Position numbers and translations under genes: made by a program
Origin: a virus
Lineage: Duplodnaviria > Heunggongvirae > Uroviricota > Caudoviricetes
Strand: one strand, 5' to 3'
IMG/VR virus record: IMGVR_UViG_2695420808_000007
Length of the DNA: 6,446 bases
Part shown: positions 1-6,446 of the stretch, one piece after another
Position numbering within the stretch: the stretch's first letter is position 1
How the letters are laid out: the number at the start of each line of letters is the position of its first letter
The notes under the pieces: model-generated
Told to the model about the DNA's origin: nothing
Database searches by the model: none
The model's input: the letters and a program-made list of their open reading frames with translations, nothing else

Positions 1-1018
1 GGCACAACGTCGCCAGCTGTCCGCACAGGAGAAATCCCTGCTGGCGCATAAAGATGAGACGCTGGAGTACAAACGCCAGCTGGCTGCACTTGGCGATAAG
101 GTCACGTATCAGGAGCGCCTGAACGCGCTGGCGCAGCAGGCGGATAAATTCGCACAGCAGCAACGGGCAAAACGGGCCGCTATTGATGCGAAAAGCCGGG
201 GGCTGACTGACCGGCAGGCAGAACGGGAAGCCACGGAACAGCGCCTGAAGGAACAGTATGGCGATAATCCTCTGGCGCTGAATAACGTCATGTCAGAGCA
301 GAAAAAGACCTGGGCGGCTGAAGACCTGCTTCGCGGGAGCTGGATGGCAGGCCTCAGGTCCGGCTGGAGCGAGTGGAAAGAGAGTGCCACGGACAGTATG
401 TCGCAGGTAAAAAGTGCAGCCACGCAGACCTTTGATGGTATTGCGCAGAATATGGCGGCGATGCTGACCGGCAGTGAGCAGAACTGGCGCAGCTTCACCC
501 GTTCCGTGCTGTCCATGATGACAGAAATTCTGCTTAAGCAGGCAATGGTGGGGATTGTCGGGAGTATTGGCAGCGCCATTGGCGGGGCTGTTGGTGGCGG
601 CGCATCAGCGTCAGGCGGTACAGCCATTCAGGCCGCTGCGGCGAAATTCCATTTTGCAACCGGAGGATTTACGGGAACCGGCGGCAAATATGAGCCAGCG
701 GGGATTGTTCACCGTGGTGAATTTGTCTTCACGAAGGAGGCAACCAGCCGGATTGGCGTGGGAAATCTCTACCGGCTGATGCGCGGCTATGCCACCGGCG
801 GTTATGTCGGTGGCACCGGAAGTCCGGCGCAAATGCGGCGTTCAGAGGGTATCAGGTTTGAGCAGAACAACAACGTGGTGATTCAGAACGACGGTACGAA
901 TGGTCTGCCAGGTCCACAGATGATGAAGGCGGTGTATGACATGGCCCGCAAGGGTGCCCGTGATGAAATCCAGGCACAGATGCGCGATGGTGGTCTGTTC
1001 TCCGGAGGTGGACGATGA
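1..1018 (+). CDS. H: Tail tape-measure protein, C-terminal part (5'-partial; reading frame opens at nt 2 and runs in from upstream of the window)
   Basis: Frame 2 is open from nt 2 to the TGA at 1016-1018. Translation (AQRRQLSAQEKSLLAHKDETLEYKRQLAALGDK ... Gly-rich GSIGSAIGGAVGGGASASGG ... MRDGGLFSGGGR) matches the C-terminus of lambda gpH as I recall it. Stop overlaps the M start (ATGA). Confidence 0.9.
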   Translation, partial: AQRRQLSAQEKSLLAHKDETLEYKRQLAALGDKVTYQERLNALAQQADKFAQQQRAKRAAIDAKSRGLTDRQAEREATEQRLKEQYGDNPLALNNVMSEQKKTWAAEDLLRGSWMAGLRSGWSEWKESATDSMSQVKSAATQTFDGIAQNMAAMLTGSEQNWRSFTRSVLSMMTEILLKQAMVGIVGSIGSAIGGAVGGGASASGGTAIQAAAAKFHFATGGFTGTGGKYEPAGIVHRGEFVFTKEATSRIGVGNLYRLMRGYATGGYVGGTGSPAQMRRSEGIRFEQNNNVVIQNDGTNGLPGPQMMKAVYDMARKGARDEIQAQMRDGGLFSGGGR

Positions 1019-1344
1019 AAACCTTCCGCTGGAAAGTGAAACCCGGGATGGATGTGACATCGGCTCCTTCCGTCAGGGAGGTGCGCTTTGGTGATGGCTA
1101 TTCCCAGCGTGCGCCTGCCGGGCTGAACGCTGACCTGAAAACGTACAGCGTGACGCTGTCTGTCTCCCGTGAGGAGGCCACGGCGCTGGAGTCGTTTCTG
1201 GAAGAGCACGGGGGCTGGAAAGCCTTTCTGTGGACGCCGCCTTATGAGTGGCGGCAGATAAAGGTGACCTGCGCAAAATGGTCGTCGCGGGTCAGTATGC
1301 TGCGTGTTGAGTTCAGCGCAGAGTTTGAACAGGTGGTGAACTGA
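1015..1344 (+). CDS. M: Minor tail protein M (109 aa)
   Basis: 109-aa ORF MKTFRWKVKPGMDVTSAPSVREVRFGDGYSQRAP..., same length and sequence as lambda gpM. Start overlaps the H stop by 4 nt (ATGA), as in lambda. Confidence 0.9.
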   Translation: MKTFRWKVKPGMDVTSAPSVREVRFGDGYSQRAPAGLNADLKTYSVTLSVSREEATALESFLEEHGGWKAFLWTPPYEWRQIKVTCAKWSSRVSMLRVEFSAEFEQVVN

Positions 1345-2042
1345 TGCAGGATATCCGGCAGGAAACACTGAATGAATGCACCCGTGCGGAGCAGTCGGCC
1401 AGCGTGGTGCTCTGGGAAATCGATCTGACAGAGGTCGGTGGAGAACGTTATTTTTTCTGTAATGAGCAGAACGAAAAAGGTGAGCCGGTCACCTGGCAGG
1501 GGAGGCAGTATCAGGCGTATCCCATTCAGGGGAGCGGTTTTGAACTGAATGGCAAAGGCACCAGTACGCGGCCCACGCTGGCAGTCTCTAACCTGTACGG
1601 CATGGTCACCGGTATGGTGGAAGATATGCAGAGTCTGGTCGGCGGAACGGTGGTCCGGCGTAAGGTTTACGCCCGTTTTCTGGATGCGGTGAACTTCGTC
1701 AACGGAAACAGTGACGCCGATCCGGAGCAGGAGGTGATCAGCCGCTGGCGCATTGAGCAGTGCAGCGAACTGAGCGCGGTGAGTGCCTCTTTTGTACTGT
1801 CCACGCCGACGGAAACAGATGGCGCTGTTTTTCCGGGACGTATCATGCTGGCCAACACCTGCACCTGGACCTATCGCGGCGATGAGTGCGGTTATCACGG
1901 TCCGGCGGTCGCGGATGAATATGACCAGCCAACGTCCGATATCACGAAGGATAAATGCAGCAAATGCCTGAGCGGTTGTAAGTTCCGCAATAACGTCGGC
2001 AACTTTGGCGGCTTCCTTTCCATTAACAAACTTTCGCAGTAA
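1344..2042 (+). CDS. L: Minor tail protein L (232 aa), with C-terminal Cys cluster
   Basis: 232-aa ORF MQDIRQETLNECTRAEQSASVVLWEIDL... matching lambda gpL. The C-terminal cysteines (C..C ... CSKCLSGC) fit the reported Fe-S-binding site of gpL. Start overlaps the M stop (TGATG). Confidence 0.9.
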   Translation: MQDIRQETLNECTRAEQSASVVLWEIDLTEVGGERYFFCNEQNEKGEPVTWQGRQYQAYPIQGSGFELNGKGTSTRPTLAVSNLYGMVTGMVEDMQSLVGGTVVRRKVYARFLDAVNFVNGNSDADPEQEVISRWRIEQCSELSAVSASFVLSTPTETDGAVFPGRIMLANTCTWTYRGDECGYHGPAVADEYDQPTSDITKDKCSKCLSGCKFRNNVGNFGGFLSINKLSQ

Positions 2043-3113
2043 ATCCCATGACAGAGACAGAATCAGCGATTCTGGCGCACGCCCGGCGATGTGCTCCAGC
2101 GGAGTCGTGCGGCTTCGTGGTAAGAACGCCGGAGGGGGAAAGATATTTCCCCTGCGTGAATATCTCCGGTGAGCCGGAGGCGTATTTCCGTATGTCGCCG
2201 GAAGACTGGCTGCAGGCAGAGATGCAGGGTGAGATTGTGGCACTGGTCCACAGCCACCCCGGTGGTCTGCCCTGGCTGAGTGAGGCCGACCGGCGGCTGC
2301 AGGTGCAGAGTGATTTGCCGTGGTGGCTGGTCTGCCGGGGGGCGATTCACAAGTTCCGCTGTGTGCCACATCTTACCGGGCGGCGCTTTGAGCACGGGGT
2401 GACGGACTGTTACACGCTGTTCCGGGATGCTTACCATCTGGCGGGGATTGAGATGCCGGATTTTCATCGTGAGGATGACTGGTGGCGTCACGGTCAGAAT
2501 CTCTATCTGGATAATCTGGAGGCCACAGGGCTGTATCAGGTGCCGTTGTCAGCGGCGCAGCCGGGCGATGTGCTGCTGTGCTGTTTTGGTTCATCGGTGC
2601 CGAATCATGCCGCCATTTACTGTGGTGACGGCGAGCTGCTGCACCATATTCCTGAACAACTGAGCAAACGAGAGAGGTATACCGACAAATGGCAGCGACG
2701 CACACACTCCCTCTGGCGTCACCGGGCATGGCACGCATCTGCCTTTACGGGGATTTGCAACGATTTGGCCGCCGCATCGACCTTCGTGTGAAAACGGGTG
2801 CCGAAGCCATCCGGGCGATGGCCACACAGCTCCCTGCGTTTCGTCAGAAGCTGAGCGACGGCTGGTATCAGGTGCGTATTGCCGGGCAGGATGTTAGCAC
2901 GTCCGGATTAACGGCACAGTTACATGAGGCTCTGCCTGACGGCGCTGTGATTCATATTGTTCCCAGAGTCGCCGGGGCCAAGTCAGGTGGTGTATTCCAG
3001 ATTGTCCTGGGAGCAGCCGCCATTGCCGGATCATTCTTTACCGCCGGAGCCACCCTTGCAGCATGGGGGGCTGCCATTGGTGCCGGTGGTATGACCGGCA
3101 TTCTGTTTTCTCA
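1536..3113 (+). repeat. Direct repeat copy A (about 1578 bp; L codon 64 or so to I codon 140 or so)
   Basis: Self-similarity: 3114 onward matches 1536 onward at offset 1578, with a 1-bp indel in the L-K spacer. Copies are near-identical over L and carry scattered substitutions over K and 5' I. Confidence 0.85.
2048..2791 (+). CDS. K: Tail tip assembly protein K, copy 1 (247 aa; JAB/MPN metallopeptidase plus NlpC/P60 domains)
   Basis: ORF begins 5 nt after the L stop. JAMM motif HSHPGGLPWLSEAD (H-x-H-x7-S-x2-D) with an upstream Glu in PAESCGFVV. NlpC/P60-type Cys (GVTDCYTLF) and His (PNHAAIY). The classic lambda annotation (199 aa) would correspond to the internal ATG at 2192. Confidence 0.88.
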   Translation: MTETESAILAHARRCAPAESCGFVVRTPEGERYFPCVNISGEPEAYFRMSPEDWLQAEMQGEIVALVHSHPGGLPWLSEADRRLQVQSDLPWWLVCRGAIHKFRCVPHLTGRRFEHGVTDCYTLFRDAYHLAGIEMPDFHREDDWWRHGQNLYLDNLEATGLYQVPLSAAQPGDVLLCCFGSSVPNHAAIYCGDGELLHHIPEQLSKRERYTDKWQRRTHSLWRHRAWHASAFTGICNDLAAASTFV

Positions 3114-3126
3114 GGTTTTGAACTGA
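2689..3126 (+). pseudogene. I: Tail assembly protein I, copy 1, 3'-truncated by the duplication junction (about 138 I-derived codons then 7 junction codons, QVLN-stop)
   Basis: Starts inside K in another frame with a 103-nt overlap, as in lambda. N-terminus MAATHTLPLASPGMARICLYGDLQRFGRRIDLRVK matches lambda gpI. Ubiquitin-like N-domain up to AGAKSGG is retained. The reading frame runs into L-derived sequence at about 3114 and stops at 3124-3126. Confidence 0.7.
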
Positions 3127-3620
3127 ATGGCAAAGGCACCAGTACGCGGCCCACGCTGGCAGTCTCTAACCTGTACGGCATGGTCACCGGTATGGTGGAA
3201 GATATGCAGAGTCTGGTCGGCGGAACGGTGGTCCGGCGTAAGGTTTACGCCCGTTTTCTGGATGCGGTGAACTTCGTCAACGGAAACAGAGACGCCGATC
3301 CGGAGCAGGAGGTGATCAGCCGCTGGCGCATCGAGCAGTGCAGCGAACTGAGCGCGGTGAGTGCCTCCTTTGTACTGTCCACGCCGACGGAAACGGATGG
3401 CGCTGTTTTTCCGGGGCGTATCATGCTGGCCAACACCTGCACCTGGACCTATCGCGGCGATGAGTGCGGTTATCACGGTCCGGCGGTCGCGGATGAATAT
3501 GACCAGCCAACGTCCGATATCACGAAGGATAAATGCAGCAAATGCCTGAGCGGTTGTAAGTTCCGCAATAACGTCGGCAACTTTGGCGGCTTCCTTTCCA
3601 TTAACAAACTTTCGCAGTAA
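3114..3620 (+). pseudogene. L: Minor tail protein L fragment, copy 2 (5'-truncated; corresponds to L residues 64-232 or so)
   Basis: In-frame L sequence from GFELNGKG... to the stop at 3618-3620, one amino-acid difference from copy 1 (S to R). No native start. The six-frame ORF 3063..3620 gets its ATG and first 17 codons from I-derived sequence read out of frame. Confidence 0.7.
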
Positions 3621-3624
3621 TCCC

Positions 3625-4368
3625 ATGACAGAGACAGAATCAGCGATTCTGGCGCACGCCCGGCGATGTGCGCCAGCGGAGTCGTGCGGCTTCGTGGTGA
3701 GAGCGCCGGAGGGGGAAAGATATTTTCCCGGCGTGAATATTTCCGGTGAGCCGGAGGATTATTTCCGGATGGCTCCGGAGGACTGGCTGCAGGCAGAAAT
3801 GCAGGGTGAGATTGTGGCGCTGGTCCACAGCCACCCCGGTGGTCTGCCCTGGCTGAGTGAGGCTGACCGGCGGCTGCAGGTGCAGAGTGATTTGCCGTGG
3901 TGGCTGGTCTGCCGGGGGGCGATTCACAAGTTCCGCTGTGTGCCACATCTTACCGGGCGGCGCTTTGAGCACGGGGTGACGGACTGTTACACGCTGTTCC
4001 GGGATGCTTATCATCTGGCGGGGATTGAGATGCCGAATTTTCATCGCGGGGATGACTGGTGGCGTCACGGTCAGAATCTCTATCTTGACAATATGGAGGC
4101 TACTGGTTTTTACCGTGTCGCACTGACAGAGGCGCAGCCGGGCGATGTGCTGCTGTGCTGTTTTGGTTCATCGGTGCCGAATCATGCCGCCATTTACTGT
4201 GGTGACGGCGAGCTGCTGCACCATATTCCTGAACAACTGAGCAAACGAGAGAGGTATACCGACAAATGGCAGCGACGCACACACTCCCTCTGGCGTCACC
4301 GGGCATGGCACGCATCTGCCTTTACGGGGATTTGCAACGATTTGGCCGCCGCATCGACCTTCGTGTGA
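3625..4368 (+). CDS. K: Tail tip assembly protein K, copy 2 (247 aa; JAB/MPN plus NlpC/P60)
   Basis: Start assigned by alignment to copy 1 (ATG at 3625; the ORF-track start at 3583 is an upstream extension). JAMM motif and NlpC/P60 Cys/His are conserved. About 12 amino-acid substitutions relative to copy 1. Confidence 0.85.
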   Translation: MTETESAILAHARRCAPAESCGFVVRAPEGERYFPGVNISGEPEDYFRMAPEDWLQAEMQGEIVALVHSHPGGLPWLSEADRRLQVQSDLPWWLVCRGAIHKFRCVPHLTGRRFEHGVTDCYTLFRDAYHLAGIEMPNFHRGDDWWRHGQNLYLDNMEATGFYRVALTEAQPGDVLLCCFGSSVPNHAAIYCGDGELLHHIPEQLSKRERYTDKWQRRTHSLWRHRAWHASAFTGICNDLAAASTFV

Positions 4369-4907
4369 AAACGGGGGCTGAAGCCATCCGGGCACTGGCC
4401 ACACAGCTCCCGGCGTTTCGTCAGAAACTGAGCGATGGCTGGTATCAGGTACGGATTGCCGGGCGGGATGCAGGAGAAACCGAATTATCATCCCGTCTTA
4501 ATGAGCCGCTGGCAAATGGTGCCGTGATCCACATCGTGCCGCGTCTTGCGGGAGCAAAAAGTGGCGGTGTGTTTCAGGCGGTGCTGGGTGCGGCGTTGAT
4601 TGCTACGGCAATCTGGATGCCGGGGATCAGTATCGCTTTCAGTGACATTCTCTTTTCAATGGGTGCGGCGATGACGCTTGGTGGTGTGGCGCAGATGCTG
4701 GCACCGAAAGCCAGAACTCCCCGTACACAGACAACGGATAACGGCAAACAGAACACCTATTTCTCCTCACTGGATAACATGGTTGCCCAGGGCAATGTCC
4801 TGCCTGTTCTGTACGGTGAAATGCGCGTGGGGTCACGTGTGGCATCTCAGGAGATCAGCACGGCAGATGAAGGGGATGGTGGTCAGGTTGTGGTAATTGG
4901 GCGGTAA
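4266..4907 (+). CDS. I: Tail assembly protein I, copy 2 (213 aa, full length; ubiquitin-like N-domain plus hydrophobic C-terminal region)
   Basis: 103-nt out-of-frame overlap with K copy 2. N-terminal 66 aa near-identical to copy 1, then divergent. C-terminal ...MLAPKARTPRTQTTDNGKQNTYFSSLDNMVAQGNVLPVLYGEMRVGSRV...GDGGQVVVIGR is lambda gpI-like. Confidence 0.85.
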   Translation: MAATHTLPLASPGMARICLYGDLQRFGRRIDLRVKTGAEAIRALATQLPAFRQKLSDGWYQVRIAGRDAGETELSSRLNEPLANGAVIHIVPRLAGAKSGGVFQAVLGAALIATAIWMPGISIAFSDILFSMGAAMTLGGVAQMLAPKARTPRTQTTDNGKQNTYFSSLDNMVAQGNVLPVLYGEMRVGSRVASQEISTADEGDGGQVVVIGR

Positions 4908-4913
4908 TATTAT

Positions 4914-4942
4914 TTTACTCATGTTCTAACTGATTTAATATT
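4914..4942 (+). promoter_or_regulatory. Possible sigma70-type promoter for the lipoprotein gene (weak -35 TTTACT, 17-bp spacer, -10 TAATAT)
   Basis: Hexamer match by eye (4 of 6 each) in the AT-rich spacer just downstream of the I stop. No experimental or computational support beyond that. Confidence 0.2.
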
Positions 4943-4980
4943 TATATCGAACACTGATAATTATTCTATTGGTTAGCTAT

Positions 4981-5319
4981 ATGAACAAAACGATTTTATT
5001 CTGCACGATTATTGCCTTAACAGGATGTAAATCTTTGGATTACGTAAAATCCGGAAAACCTGTAATGGAAGGTAATTCATTAAAAAATATTGATGAATTG
5101 TCAGGCTGCATATCCAGACAATGGGCTGGTAATGGAACACCTATAACATCCCTTCCTATTGAGAATGGGGTAAGCCTTTTAGTTCCACAGGCTATGGGGG
5201 GATATGATGTTGTGCTTGATATCAAAAAAGCAGGAAATGGCAGTAGTTTTACTCTTTATGAACGTGTACCAGCATTAACGCCAAAAATTTTTGCTGATAG
5301 TGTTAATGCATGTAAATAA
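4981..5319 (+). CDS. Small predicted outer-membrane lipoprotein (112 aa precursor), unknown function; moron between I and J
   Basis: ATG at 4981 (the ORF track starts at a TTG at 4969). N-terminus MNKTILFCTIIALTG-C has a charged n-region, hydrophobic core and lipobox L-T-G-C. Residue +2 after Cys is Lys, not Asp, so outer-membrane sorting is predicted. GC content of roughly 32-35% against about 58-60% in flanking tail genes. AT-rich codon usage (ata, aga, tta). Confidence 0.6.
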   Translation: MNKTILFCTIIALTGCKSLDYVKSGKPVMEGNSLKNIDELSGCISRQWAGNGTPITSLPIENGVSLLVPQAMGGYDVVLDIKKAGNGSSFTLYERVPALTPKIFADSVNACK

Positions 5320-5342
5320 TAGTTAATCCTGTCGTAACTCAT

Positions 5343-5371
5343 GAGCCGCCTTTTGGGCGGCTTTGTTGTTT
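5343..5371 (+). terminator. Rho-independent terminator-like hairpin downstream of the lipoprotein gene
   Basis: Stem GCCGCC (5345-5350), loop TTTTG, stem GGCGGC (5356-5361), then T-rich tract TTTGTTGTTT. Sits 24 nt after the lipoprotein stop. Confidence 0.55.
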
Positions 5372-5385
5372 ATGGAGTGTGAGGA

Positions 5386-6446
5386 ATGGGTAAAGGAAGC
5401 AGTAAGGGGCATACCCCGCGCGAAGCGAAGGACAACCTGAAGTCCACGCAGTTGCTGAGTGTGATCGATGCCATCAGCGAAGGGCCGGTTGAAGGTCCGG
5501 TGGATGGATTAAAAAGCGTGCTGCTGAACAGTACGCCGGTGCTGGACACTGAGGGGAATACCAACATCGCCGGTGTCACGGTGGTGTTCCGTGCCGGTGA
5601 GCAGGAGCAGACACCGCCGGAGGGGTTTGAATCTTCCGGCTCCGAGACGGTGCTGGGTACGGAAGTGAAATACGACACGCCGATCACCCGGACTATCACG
5701 TCTGCAAACATCGACCGTCTGCGCTTTACCTTCGGTGTGCAGGCACTGGTGGAAACCACCTCAAAGGGGGACCGGAATCCGTCGGAAGTCCGCCTGCTGG
5801 TTCAGATACAGCGTAATGGTGGCTGGGTGACGGAAAAAGACATCACCATTAAGGGCAAAACCACCTCGCAGTATCTGGCCTCGGTGGTGGTGGATAACCT
5901 GCCGCCGCGCCCGTTTAATATCCGGATGCGCAGAATGACGCCGGACAGCACCACAGACCAGCTGCAGAACAAAACGCTCTGGTCGTCATACACCGAAATC
6001 ATCGATGTGAAACAGTGCTACCCGAACACGGCACTGGTCGGCGTGCAGGTGGATTCGGAGCAGTTCGGCAGCCAGCAGGTGAGCCGTAATTATCATCTGC
6101 GCGGGCGTATTCTGCAGGTGCCGTCGAATTATAACCCGCAGACGCGGCAATACAGCGGTATCTGGGACGGAACGTTTAAACCGGCATACAGCAACAACAT
6201 GGCCTGGTGTCTGTGGGATATGCTGACCCACCCGCGCTACGGCATGGGGAAACGTCTTGGTGCGGCAGATGTGGATAAATGGGCGCTGTATGTCATCGGC
6301 CAGAATTGCGACCAGTCGGTGCCGGACGGCTTTGGCGGCACGGAGCCGCGCATTACCTGTAATGCGTACCTGACCACACAGCGCAAGGCGTGGGATGTGC
6401 TCAGTGATTTCTGCTCGGCGATGCGCTGTATGCCGGTATGGAACGG
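5386..6446 (+). CDS. J: Host specificity / central tail fibre protein J, N-terminal part (3'-partial; runs off the window)
   Basis: ATG at 5386 preceded by GGAG/GAGGA. Frame is open to the window end. Translation MGKGSSKGHTPREAKDNLKSTQLLSVIDAISEGPVEGPVDGLKSVLLNSTPVLDTEGNTN... matches the lambda gpJ N-terminus. Absent from the ORF track only because there is no in-window stop. Confidence 0.9.
   Translation, partial: MGKGSSKGHTPREAKDNLKSTQLLSVIDAISEGPVEGPVDGLKSVLLNSTPVLDTEGNTNIAGVTVVFRAGEQEQTPPEGFESSGSETVLGTEVKYDTPITRTITSANIDRLRFTFGVQALVETTSKGDRNPSEVRLLVQIQRNGGWVTEKDITIKGKTTSQYLASVVVDNLPPRPFNIRMRRMTPDSTTDQLQNKTLWSSYTEIIDVKQCYPNTALVGVQVDSEQFGSQQVSRNYHLRGRILQVPSNYNPQTRQYSGIWDGTFKPAYSNNMAWCLWDMLTHPRYGMGKRLGAADVDKWALYVIGQNCDQSVPDGFGGTEPRITCNAYLTTQRKAWDVLSDFCSAMRCMPVWN

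What the first reader, a model, noticed from the sequence alone, without database searches (positions are those of the whole stretch)
4908..5385. AT-rich moron between I and J encoding a predicted outer-membrane lipoprotein, candidate receptor-blocking or superinfection-exclusion factor
A 478-nt spacer separates I from J here, whereas in lambda the gap is about 60 nt as I recall it. The spacer has sharply lower GC (roughly one-third against nearly 60% in flanks) and holds a single 112-codon ORF with a canonical signal peptide and lipobox (LTGC), Lys at +2, two further Cys (C47, C115), a possible promoter, and its own hairpin terminator. This is the signature of a horizontally acquired, independently expressed moron. 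Its position directly upstream of the receptor-binding gene J recalls known phage lipoproteins that block the phage's own receptor (T5 Llp, Cor of phi80/N15/HK022 acting on FhuA). I do not recognise this protein as any named family, so the function is hypothetical.
Basis: partly seen in the sequence, partly recalled or inferred. Interest (0 to 1): 0.8.

Follow-up and report, generated by a model that had tools for sequence, protein, structure and literature searches.

The report
Mobile prophage lipoprotein gene before J
An AT-rich extra gene wedged between the tail genes I and J of a lambda-like E. coli prophage encodes a small outer-membrane lipoprotein of an uncharacterised phage family that hops between gaps of phage tail operons. 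It probably changes the lysogen's envelope, perhaps to keep other phages out, but its function has never been tested.

Summary
The I-J spacer is 478 nt (4908-5385) against 60 nt in lambda and in two E. coli prophages that have the same J type. It is 36% GC against 57-58% in the flanks. It holds one ORF (4981-5319, 112 aa) with the lipobox LTGC and Lys at +2.

The protein is RefSeq 'hypothetical protein' WP_001332187.1 and a full-length member of PHROG 914 (function unknown). It has no Pfam, NCBIfam or PADLOC match. Three Cys are invariant across 45 relatives: the lipidated Cys16, plus Cys43 and Cys111.

"Moron" is well supported:
- The cassette is in only about 6% of complete E. coli genomes.
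- Relatives sit in three different tail-operon gaps (I-J, K-I, T-H, the last being the HK97 gp15 site).
- One relative lies antisense to the tail genes, one is on a plasmid, and one is on a chromosome.

Two details need correcting. The hairpin is already present in empty I-J gaps, and no convincing promoter was found.

The "blocks its own receptor" idea is weakened. The same protein travels with four different J C-terminal types, and it shares only a signal peptide with Cor, Llp and mEp Lpp.

Function remains inferred. Envelope-level phage exclusion is my leading guess (about 0.35).

The parts
4266..4907 (+). Tail assembly gene I (second copy in the window), the left neighbour of the cassette
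   Evidence: Pfam Lambda_tail_I, E 4e-24, and phrog_32. The 3' end is about 95% identical to lambda I.
4908..4980 (+). AT-rich leader of the cassette. It holds a -10-like GATAAT at 4956-4961, and no strong -35 or Shine-Dalgarno sequence.
   Evidence: No + strand promoter match of at least 9 of 12. GATAAT is conserved in all 63 sampled copies. This leader, the ORF and the trailer together take the place of the 19 nt TGCAAAATGTTTTATGTGA found in empty sites.
4981..5319 (+). Lipoprotein ORF, 112 aa, a PHROG 914 member identical to WP_001332187.1. Signal peptide codons are 4981-5025, and the lipidated Cys16 codon is 5026-5028.
   Evidence: phrog_914, E 7e-33, full length. 45 relatives have invariant C16, C43 and C111. 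AF2 pLDDT is 90.7. 60 of 63 copies are intact, with 11 synonymous against 6 nonsynonymous variable codons.
5320..5342 (+). 3' trailer of the cassette, up to the right-hand junction with the resident I-J spacer
   Evidence: Alignment with the empty sites of lambda, EC22 and PM22 resumes at about 5340.
5343..5373 (+). GC-rich hairpin (GAGCCGCC-TTTT-GGGCGGCT) followed by a T-rich tail. It is terminator-like and is a resident feature of the I-J spacer.
   Evidence: The same hairpin is present in lambda, EC22 and PM22 without the cassette. One stem pair differs by a change on both sides, A-U in lambda and G-C here.
5386..6446 (+). 5' third of tail tip/host specificity gene J (runs off the window)
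   Evidence: NCBIfam lambda_TipJ, E 7e-245; Pfam FNIII-A_GpJ.

Best explanation
The 4908-5342 segment is a horizontally mobile accessory cassette (a moron) that replaced 19 nt of the normal 60-nt I-J spacer of a lambda-like E. coli prophage.

Its single gene makes a 112-aa preprolipoprotein. Sec export, lipidation at Cys16 and cleavage by signal peptidase II would leave a 97-residue protein. The Lol pathway should send it to the inner leaflet of the outer membrane, because +2 is Lys and not Asp. The mature part is a compact alpha/beta domain, probably clamped by a Cys43-Cys111 disulfide.

I infer that it is made in the lysogen and acts in the periplasm on a host envelope component or on the tail-tip/tape-measure proteins of an incoming siphophage. 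That would block adsorption or DNA entry, which is superinfection exclusion. It would not be tuned to the receptor-binding domain of its own J.

Status of each step:
- Shown: the insertion, its foreign composition, its mobility between sites, the lipoprotein signal, purifying selection and the confident fold.
- Rule-based: outer-membrane sorting.
- Inferred: the disulfide, expression in lysogens and the exclusion function.
For: Insertion and mobility:
- Empty sites in lambda, EC22 and PM22 have a 60-nt gap.
- The cassette is in 331-337 of 5426 complete E. coli genomes, whereas this J C-terminal type is in 3349.
- GC is 36% against 57% in the flanks.
- The family is placed I-J (57 IMG/VR loci), T-H (6) and K-I (3-4).
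- The T-H gap is where the HK97 gp15 exclusion moron sits (PMC3594210).

Expression independent of the late operon, in some members:
- P0064 lies antisense to the tail operon.
- P0049 directly follows and overlaps a cI-like HTH gene.
- The Yersinia copy has a promoter-like site with an extended -10.
- Terminator-like hairpins follow the ORF in four contexts.

Lipoprotein:
- 42 of 45 relatives match a strict lipobox pattern, and the other three carry WGC, GGC or MGC. None has Asp at +2.
- C16, C43 and C111 are invariant.

Selection and fold:
- 60 of 63 copies are intact, and synonymous variable codons outnumber nonsynonymous ones.
- AF2 pLDDT is 90.7.

Precedent for small phage lipoproteins encoded beside tail-tip genes that exclude phages:
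- T5 Llp binds the periplasmic face of FhuA (PMC9586334).
- The Rtp accessory protein binds the periplasmic face of LptD (bioRxiv 10.64898/2026.04.02.716166).
- mEp Lpp010 and Lpp021 (PMC11893012).
Against: - No experiment or annotation links any family member to a function. All are 'hypothetical' or 'lipoprotein'.
- No PADLOC hit.
- No homology to any known exclusion lipoprotein.
- The fold is a generic TBP-like/helix-grip half. Its nearest neighbour is Flpp3, itself of unknown function, and there are no Foldseek hits at E <= 0.001.
- No convincing promoter in this copy. The Klebsiella copy starts 32 nt after K, so it may simply be read with the late operon.
- Relatives on a plasmid and in the Shimwellia chromosome, the latter with native GC, point to a role not restricted to phage biology.
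- Position in the tail operon may only reflect where insertions are tolerated.
Confidence: 0.35

Rival explanations
1. The lipoprotein specifically blocks the outer-membrane receptor used by the J protein encoded next to it, as Llp and Cor do for FhuA.
For: It lies directly upstream of J here. Established lipoprotein receptor blockers are encoded beside receptor-binding genes. Like Llp, it carries a disulfide pair.
Against: - A protein at least 99% identical is linked to four J C-terminal types that are 15-70% identical over the last 200 aa.
- Most prophages with the same J type lack it.
- Relatives at about 50% identity sit beside K/I or T/H, with J proteins of 1067-3367 aa.
- Fraca has both a family member and cor.
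- There is no homology to Cor, Llp or Lpp010 beyond the signal peptide.
Confidence: 0.12
2. A lysogenic-conversion factor that benefits the host independently of phages, for example serum resistance, adhesion or envelope stress tolerance. This would resemble the lambda morons bor and lom.
For: - It sits in the same late-operon region as lom, which lies just after J in these prophages.
- It is carried by many extraintestinal pathogenic strains: UTI89, NU14, CE10, APEC O78 and O2, and O104:H4.
- Chromosomal and plasmid relatives exist.
- The nearest fold neighbour, Flpp3, was deposited as a Francisella 'virulence determinant'.
Against: There is no homology to Bor/Iss or any known virulence lipoprotein (no Pfam hit). 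The strain list may only reflect which prophage lineages circulate in those clones. The recurrent placement inside tail-tip modules across genera is not explained.
Confidence: 0.25
3. An immunity or inhibitor protein that neutralises a periplasm-acting toxin or enzyme, such as a bacteriocin, a secreted effector, a protease or a wall hydrolase. One candidate target is the C40 peptidase K carried by incoming tails.
For: - It is a small disulfide-bonded periplasmic lipoprotein, which is typical of such inhibitors.
- It has an orphan-like scatter on phages, plasmids and chromosomes.
- The Shimwellia copy sits next to ecotin.
- Several copies sit immediately after K.
Against: There is no fold or sequence match to any known immunity or inhibitor family. 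No cognate toxin gene is nearby in any context examined. The link to K is not constant.
Confidence: 0.1
4. A late-expressed helper read with the tail operon. It would be made during lytic growth to mask envelope components, so that progeny are not lost on debris (the 'lytic conversion' role first proposed for Llp) or to aid release.
For: It has the same orientation as the late operon in nearly all contexts. This copy and the Enterobacter copy have no convincing promoter, and the Klebsiella copy lies only 32 nt after K. Q-antiterminated late transcription would read through the hairpin (established lambda biology).
Against: One relative is antisense to the tail genes and one is attached to a repressor-like gene. 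Plasmid and chromosomal relatives have no lytic cycle.
Confidence: 0.08
5. A structural or assembly component of the tail tip.
For: It always lies among tail-tip genes.
Against: It is absent from lambda and from about 90% of E. coli prophages with the same tail genes. A Sec/lipoprotein signal would export it away from cytoplasmic tail assembly. Its position varies, and it also occurs on a plasmid and a chromosome.
Confidence: 0.03

Closest known systems
HK97 gp15 moron (superinfection exclusion; Cumby et al. 2012, summarised in PMC3594210)
   Same: It is an extra gene inserted in the tail operon. The Enterobacter relatives of this lipoprotein occupy the same T-tape measure gap. Both are envelope proteins. 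Both families have chromosomal relatives: YebO for gp15, and the Shimwellia copy here.
   Different: gp15 is a small inner-membrane protein, not a lipoprotein, and there is no sequence relationship. gp15's exclusion activity and its dependence on the tail region were shown experimentally. Nothing has been tested here.
T5 Llp and the Cor family (phi80, N15, HK022, T1)
   Same: These are small phage-encoded outer-membrane lipoproteins with an internal disulfide, encoded beside tail-tip or receptor-binding genes. Llp acts from the periplasmic side (PMC9586334).
   Different: Mature Llp/Cor are about 60 aa, against 97 aa here. Similarity is confined to the signal peptide and lipobox (Cor: 29 columns; Llp: E 1.7). 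The fold is different. This gene is not tied to one receptor-binding domain.
mEp Lpp010 / Lpp021 exclusion lipoproteins (PMC11893012)
   Same: These are lipoprotein genes inside the structural gene cluster of temperate coliphages. They were shown to exclude phages, and Lpp010 excludes lambda as well.
   Different: They are 82 and 72 aa, and lie downstream of J on the opposite strand. They are unrelated beyond the lipobox.
Lambda Bor and Lom
   Same: These are moron-type outer-membrane proteins carried in lambdoid late regions and expressed from the prophage. Bor is a lipoprotein.
   Different: There is no Pfam Bor hit and no sequence similarity. Their location differs: bor is by the lysis genes and lom follows J.
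Francisella Flpp3 (DUF3568) and the BamC N-terminal domain
   Different: Identity is 6-12%, below any significance threshold for homology. Flpp3's function is unknown, so the match says little about function.
Ltp of Streptococcus thermophilus phage TP-J34 (PMC3952083)
   Same: It is a prophage-expressed lipoprotein that blocks infection at the envelope. From my own knowledge, it acts on the incoming tape measure protein. It is a mechanistic model for a tail-directed rather than receptor-directed exclusion lipoprotein.
   Different: Its host is Gram-positive, its sequence and fold are unrelated, and it is encoded in the lysogeny module.

Membership tests
Moron (Juhala et al. 2000 sense) | Extra DNA between two genes that are adjacent in related phages | tested here: met
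   Lambda, EC22 and PM22 have a 60-nt I-J gap, and the window has 478 nt.
Moron (Juhala et al. 2000 sense) | Base composition unlike the flanking genes | tested here: met
   36% GC against 57-58%. The Klebsiella, Enterobacter and Kluyvera copies are also 10-12 points below their upstream flanks.
Moron (Juhala et al. 2000 sense) | Own transcription terminator | tested here: inconclusive
   A hairpin with a T-rich tail follows the ORF, but the same hairpin exists in empty sites. Copies at K-I and T-H sites each have their own hairpin and T-run.
Moron (Juhala et al. 2000 sense) | Own promoter | tested here: inconclusive
   No match of at least 9 of 12 upstream, only a conserved GATAAT. A distant relative lies antisense to the tail genes and so needs its own promoter. 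The Yersinia copy has a promoter-like site.
Moron (Juhala et al. 2000 sense) | Expression from the repressed prophage | not testable with these tools
   This needs RNA-seq or 5'-RACE in a lysogen.
Bacterial lipoprotein (Lgt/LspA substrate) | A positively charged n-region, a hydrophobic h-region, and the lipobox [LVI][ASTVI][GAS]C within the first ~20-25 residues | tested here: met
   MNK-TILFCTIIA-LTGC. 42 of 45 relatives match a strict lipobox pattern, and the other three carry WGC, GGC or MGC. SignalP and LipoP were not available.
Bacterial lipoprotein (Lgt/LspA substrate) | Outer-membrane sorting: no Asp at +2 (Lol avoidance rule for Enterobacteriaceae) | tested here: met
   +2 is Lys here. 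Across the family it is A, K, S, T, G, V, L or E, and never D. This rests on the rule only.
PHROG 914 | Full-length profile match | tested here: met
   E 7e-33, residues 1-112 on profile positions 1-118 of 118. All 44 aligned relatives match.
Cor superinfection exclusion family (PHROG 1119) | Homology over the mature protein | tested here: not met
   hhalign of the family profile against Fraca Cor aligns 29 columns covering the signal peptide and lipobox only. 2 of 44 members give E of about 5e-4 to phrog_1119.
T5 Llp | Sequence or fold similarity to Llp (PDB 8a60 chain B) | tested here: not met
mEp Lpp exclusion lipoproteins | Homology to Lpp010 (type C) or Lpp021 (type A) | tested here: not met
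   Lpp010 aligns over 14 columns at the lipobox only. Lpp021 is a 72-aa protein downstream of J, and tblastn of all phage records found neither.
Lambda Bor / Iss | Match to the Pfam Bor family | tested here: not met
   No Pfam family at E <= 1.
Conserved tail structural or assembly protein | Present in all relatives with the same tail module; cytoplasmic | tested here: not met
   Absent from lambda, EC22, PM22 and about 90% of genomes with this J type. It carries an export signal.

The most novel reading that the evidence does not exclude
PHROG 914 is a new family of periplasm-facing outer-membrane lipoproteins that travel as cassettes through the tail-tip modules of enterobacterial siphophages. 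They would exclude superinfecting phages by intercepting the ejected tail-tip or tape-measure proteins, or a conserved host entry factor, rather than by masking a specific receptor. That would make them a Gram-negative counterpart of Ltp or gp15, with a different fold from Llp and Cor.
Probability: 0.25. Interest if true: 0.65.

Novelty: new variant of a known kind. Interest (0 to 1): 0.45.

Why it matters
Prophage morons are a main source of phage resistance and fitness traits in E. coli. This one sits in about 6% of complete genomes, including model pathogens (UTI89, NU14, CE10, O104:H4 and the type strain), and is still labelled 'hypothetical'.

If it excludes phages, it would add a new protein family and possibly a new target to the short list of envelope-level exclusion mechanisms. 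It would also matter for phage therapy host-range prediction. The comparative picture (one gene, three tail-operon gaps, plus antisense, plasmid and chromosomal copies) is a clean case study of how morons move. If instead it is a host-fitness factor, it is still an untested lysogenic-conversion gene in well-studied pathogens.

Tried and rejected
- No match to the protein in Pfam, NCBIfam or PADLOC. The VirB7 hit at E 0.08 covers the signal peptide only.
- A PDB sequence search with the family profile gave nothing below E 0.1.
It was rerun without that row.
- The search for related loci with the 44-sequence alignment failed for lack of a conserved stretch. It was rerun with the nine close relatives.
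- The GTDB genome scan found only one species representative, a Kluyvera. The close family is therefore strain-variable.
- Look-up of P0006 returned nothing. Two look-ups gave no DNA.
- A literature search for the RefSeq accession found no paper.
- The Rfam scan of the gap gave only a sub-threshold GcvB hit (19.6 bits against a gathering score of 42), which I read as driven by the hairpin.
- The minus-strand ORFs in the gap (5009-5140, 5040-5225) were dismissed. All homology and conservation support the + strand ORF.
- I could not find a receptor assignment for the 1159-aa J type, and I could not run complex prediction.

Full report
**Layout of the window**

The window is the tail-tip block of a lambda-like prophage:

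| Feature | Coordinates |
|---|---|
| End of tape measure H | 290-1018 |
| M | 1015-1344 |
| L | 1344-2042 |
| K | 2048-2791 |
| Truncated I | 2689-3126 |
| Second partial L | to 3620 |
| Second K | about 3625-4368 |
| Full I | 4266-4907 |
| Finding's ORF | 4981-5319 |
| J | from 5386 |

It is 99% identical, apart from the duplication, to a prophage next to the trp operon in E. coli APEC E12049.

**Checking the observation**

- The I-J gap is 478 nt. Lambda's gap is 60 nt.
- GC is 35.6% in the gap, against 56.7% and 57.8% in the flanks.
- The ORF gives MNKTILFCTIIALTGCKSLD..., 112 aa. The lipobox LTGC is at residues 13-16 and Lys is at +2.
- Further cysteines are at 8 (signal peptide), 43 and 111.
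- RefSeq annotates exactly this ORF as hypothetical protein WP_001332187.1.
- A 9-bp GC-rich hairpin at 5343-5363 with a T-rich tail is real.
- No + strand sigma-70 site reaches 9 of 12. The best feature is a -10-like GATAAT at 4956-4961 with a poor -35.

**The hairpin is not the cassette's own**

Lambda's 60-nt spacer already has AAACCGCC-TGC-GGGCGGTTT plus a T-run at the homologous position. The same is true of two E. coli prophages, EC22 and PM22, that carry the same J type but no cassette.

Between lambda and the window, one stem pair changes on both sides (A-U to G-C), so the structure is conserved. The cassette therefore replaced 19 nt (TGCAAAATGTTTTATGTGA) between the I stop codon and a resident hairpin. 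Its limits are about 4908-5342.

Other tail genes in this block abut or overlap one another. Lambda's odd 60-nt gap with a terminator-like hairpin may itself be a scar or a landing pad for such cassettes. That is an inference.

**It is an accessory, mobile gene**

- The cassette is in 331-337 of 5426 complete E. coli genomes. These include UTI89, NU14, CE10, O104:H4, APEC strains and the type strain.
- The J C-terminal type of this prophage is in 3349 genomes.
- In IMG/VR, 57 loci have the gene between I and J, 6 between T and the tape measure, and 3-4 between K and I.

Look-ups of individual relatives gave these contexts:

| Relative | Context | Calls |
|---|---|---|
| Klebsiella P0013, Hafnia P0033 | K-I gap | 19, 80 |
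| Enterobacter P0014 | T-H gap of an HK97-like tail, the site of the HK97 gp15 exclusion moron | 20; PMC3594210, |
| Yersinia P0025 | Last gene of a K-I island that also holds Arc, antirepressor and KilA-N genes | 78 |
| Phages Fraca and LMessi (31% and 29% identical) | K-I gap | 12, 15, 16 |
| P0064 | Antisense to the tail genes, between chaperone and tape measure | 79 |
| P0049 | Overlaps the end of a cI-like HTH gene | 62 |
| P0036 | On a Rep3/ParA plasmid | 49 |
| P0022 | Shimwellia blattae chromosome, next to ecotin, with native GC (62%) | 47, 74 |

Terminator-like hairpins follow the ORF in the Klebsiella, Enterobacter and Yersinia copies too.

**The protein**

- It is a full-length member of PHROG 914, function unknown (E 7e-33). 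All 44 aligned relatives match that family.
- There is no Pfam, NCBIfam, PADLOC or PDB sequence match.
- An exhaustive search of 1.8 billion representatives found only 59 hits at E <= 0.001, and most of the listed hits are proteins of about 91-152 aa.
- In 45 aligned sequences the lipobox Cys and two further Cys (43 and 111) are invariant. 42 match a strict lipobox pattern, the other three carry WGC, GGC or MGC, and none has Asp at +2.
- Among 63 E. coli copies, 60 are intact. Eleven codons vary synonymously and 6 nonsynonymously, which is consistent with purifying selection.
- AlphaFold2 with the family alignment gives a confident model, pLDDT 90.7 and pTM 0.80. After the signal peptide comes a short helix, a strand, a long helix carrying C43, four antiparallel strands and a C-terminal helix ending at C111.
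- A C43-C111 disulfide is my inference from the invariance. I could not inspect coordinates.
- In BFVD the only good match is an uncharacterised Pseudomonas phage protein.

**Testing the receptor-blocker idea**

- Known exclusion lipoproteins are unrelated. Cor from Fraca aligns over the signal peptide and lipobox only. So does mEp010 Lpp010, an 82-aa protein. mEp021 Lpp021 is a 72-aa protein downstream of J. T5 Llp matches only at the signal peptide, E 1.7.
- If the protein masked the receptor of its own J, it should co-vary with J's receptor-binding end. It does not. A lipoprotein at least 99% identical is linked to four J C-terminal types: 1159 aa (22 loci), 1137 aa (3), 1084 aa (2) and 1132 aa (1). 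These are 15-70% identical over the last 200 residues.
- The upstream I protein ranges from 69 to 100% identity, and the tape measures differ in length.
- Fraca carries both a family member and cor.

These points lower the specific "own receptor" reading. They do not exclude a broader exclusion role.

**Most likely mechanism**

What is shown is an accessory cassette under purifying selection that encodes an exported, lipidated, outer-membrane-sorted and stably folded small protein.

By analogy with gp15, Llp, the Rtp LptD-binding factor, Lpp010/Lpp021 and Ltp (PMC3952083), the best single guess is an envelope-level block to superinfecting phages acting from the periplasmic side. I put this at about 0.35.

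Rivals are:
- a phage-independent fitness or virulence factor like Bor or Lom (0.25);
- the strict own-receptor blocker (0.12);
- an immunity or inhibitor protein (0.10);
- a late-expressed helper (0.08);
- a structural protein (0.03).

**Novelty**

Morons that encode envelope lipoproteins are a known kind. This is an uncharacterised family with a different size and fold from the known exclusion lipoproteins, and its pattern of movement through tail-operon gaps is unusually clear. I found no paper that mentions the protein. I rate it a new variant of a known kind, of moderate interest and cheap to test.

Noticed in passing
window 1536-2893 and 3114-4470: A tandem duplication of about 1578 bp covers the 3' two-thirds of L, all of K and the 5' part of I. 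The copies are 96.2% identical over 1360 nt. The first I copy is truncated (2689-3126) and runs into mid-L at about 3114. No complete E. coli genome has this arrangement: the best hits span 4868 bp in two pieces. It may be a recombination between two related prophages or an assembly chimera.
   Followed up: partly
L011 (lambda 15445-15504); L105 1578-1637; L106 1563-1622: The 60-nt I-J spacer of lambda and of cassette-free E. coli prophages holds a conserved GC hairpin plus T-run (-16.5 kcal/mol, z = -3.9). One stem pair differs from the window's copy by a change on both sides. It is a terminator-like element inside the late operon that may mark a moron scar or landing site.
   Followed up: partly
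L096-L098 (Yersinia enterocolitica prophages), about 400-5400: The K-I gap holds a 4.5-kb accessory island with divergent Arc-family repressors, Bro-N/antirepressor and KilA-N/ANT genes, and in one case a SocA_Panacea gene. This resembles a P22 immI region placed inside a tail operon. The lipoprotein gene is the last gene before I.
   Followed up: no
L104 (phage mEp021) 7959-8525: In mEp021 the I-J gap is occupied by a putative HNH endonuclease gene, and the H-M and M-L gaps hold antisense gene clusters. Tail-tip intergenic gaps appear to be general insertion sites for accessory genes.
   Followed up: no
L012 5001-5339 (Shimwellia blattae chromosome): A 38%-identical family member sits outside any prophage, between a YidB-family gene and ecotin and near copCD/yebY. 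Its GC is 62%, above both 1-kb flanks (55% and 52%), unlike the AT-rich phage copies. It is a possible cellular relative of the phage cassettes.
   Followed up: partly
L081-L083 (IMG/VR E. coli prophage contigs): Three of 63 sampled cassette copies are frameshifted or truncated, so the gene is occasionally lost by decay while the cassette DNA remains.
   Followed up: no
window 5146-5371: A sub-threshold Rfam GcvB hit (19.6 bits against a gathering score of 42, E 0.07) overlaps the 3' half of the ORF and the hairpin. I judge it a chance match driven by the terminator-like stem.
   Followed up: yes
L001 24084-24683 and the equivalent in L018-L021: Every cassette-bearing prophage examined also carries an Ail/Lom family outer-membrane protein gene directly after J, followed by a side tail fibre gene. 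Some of the fibre genes are interrupted or partial (CE10).
   Followed up: no
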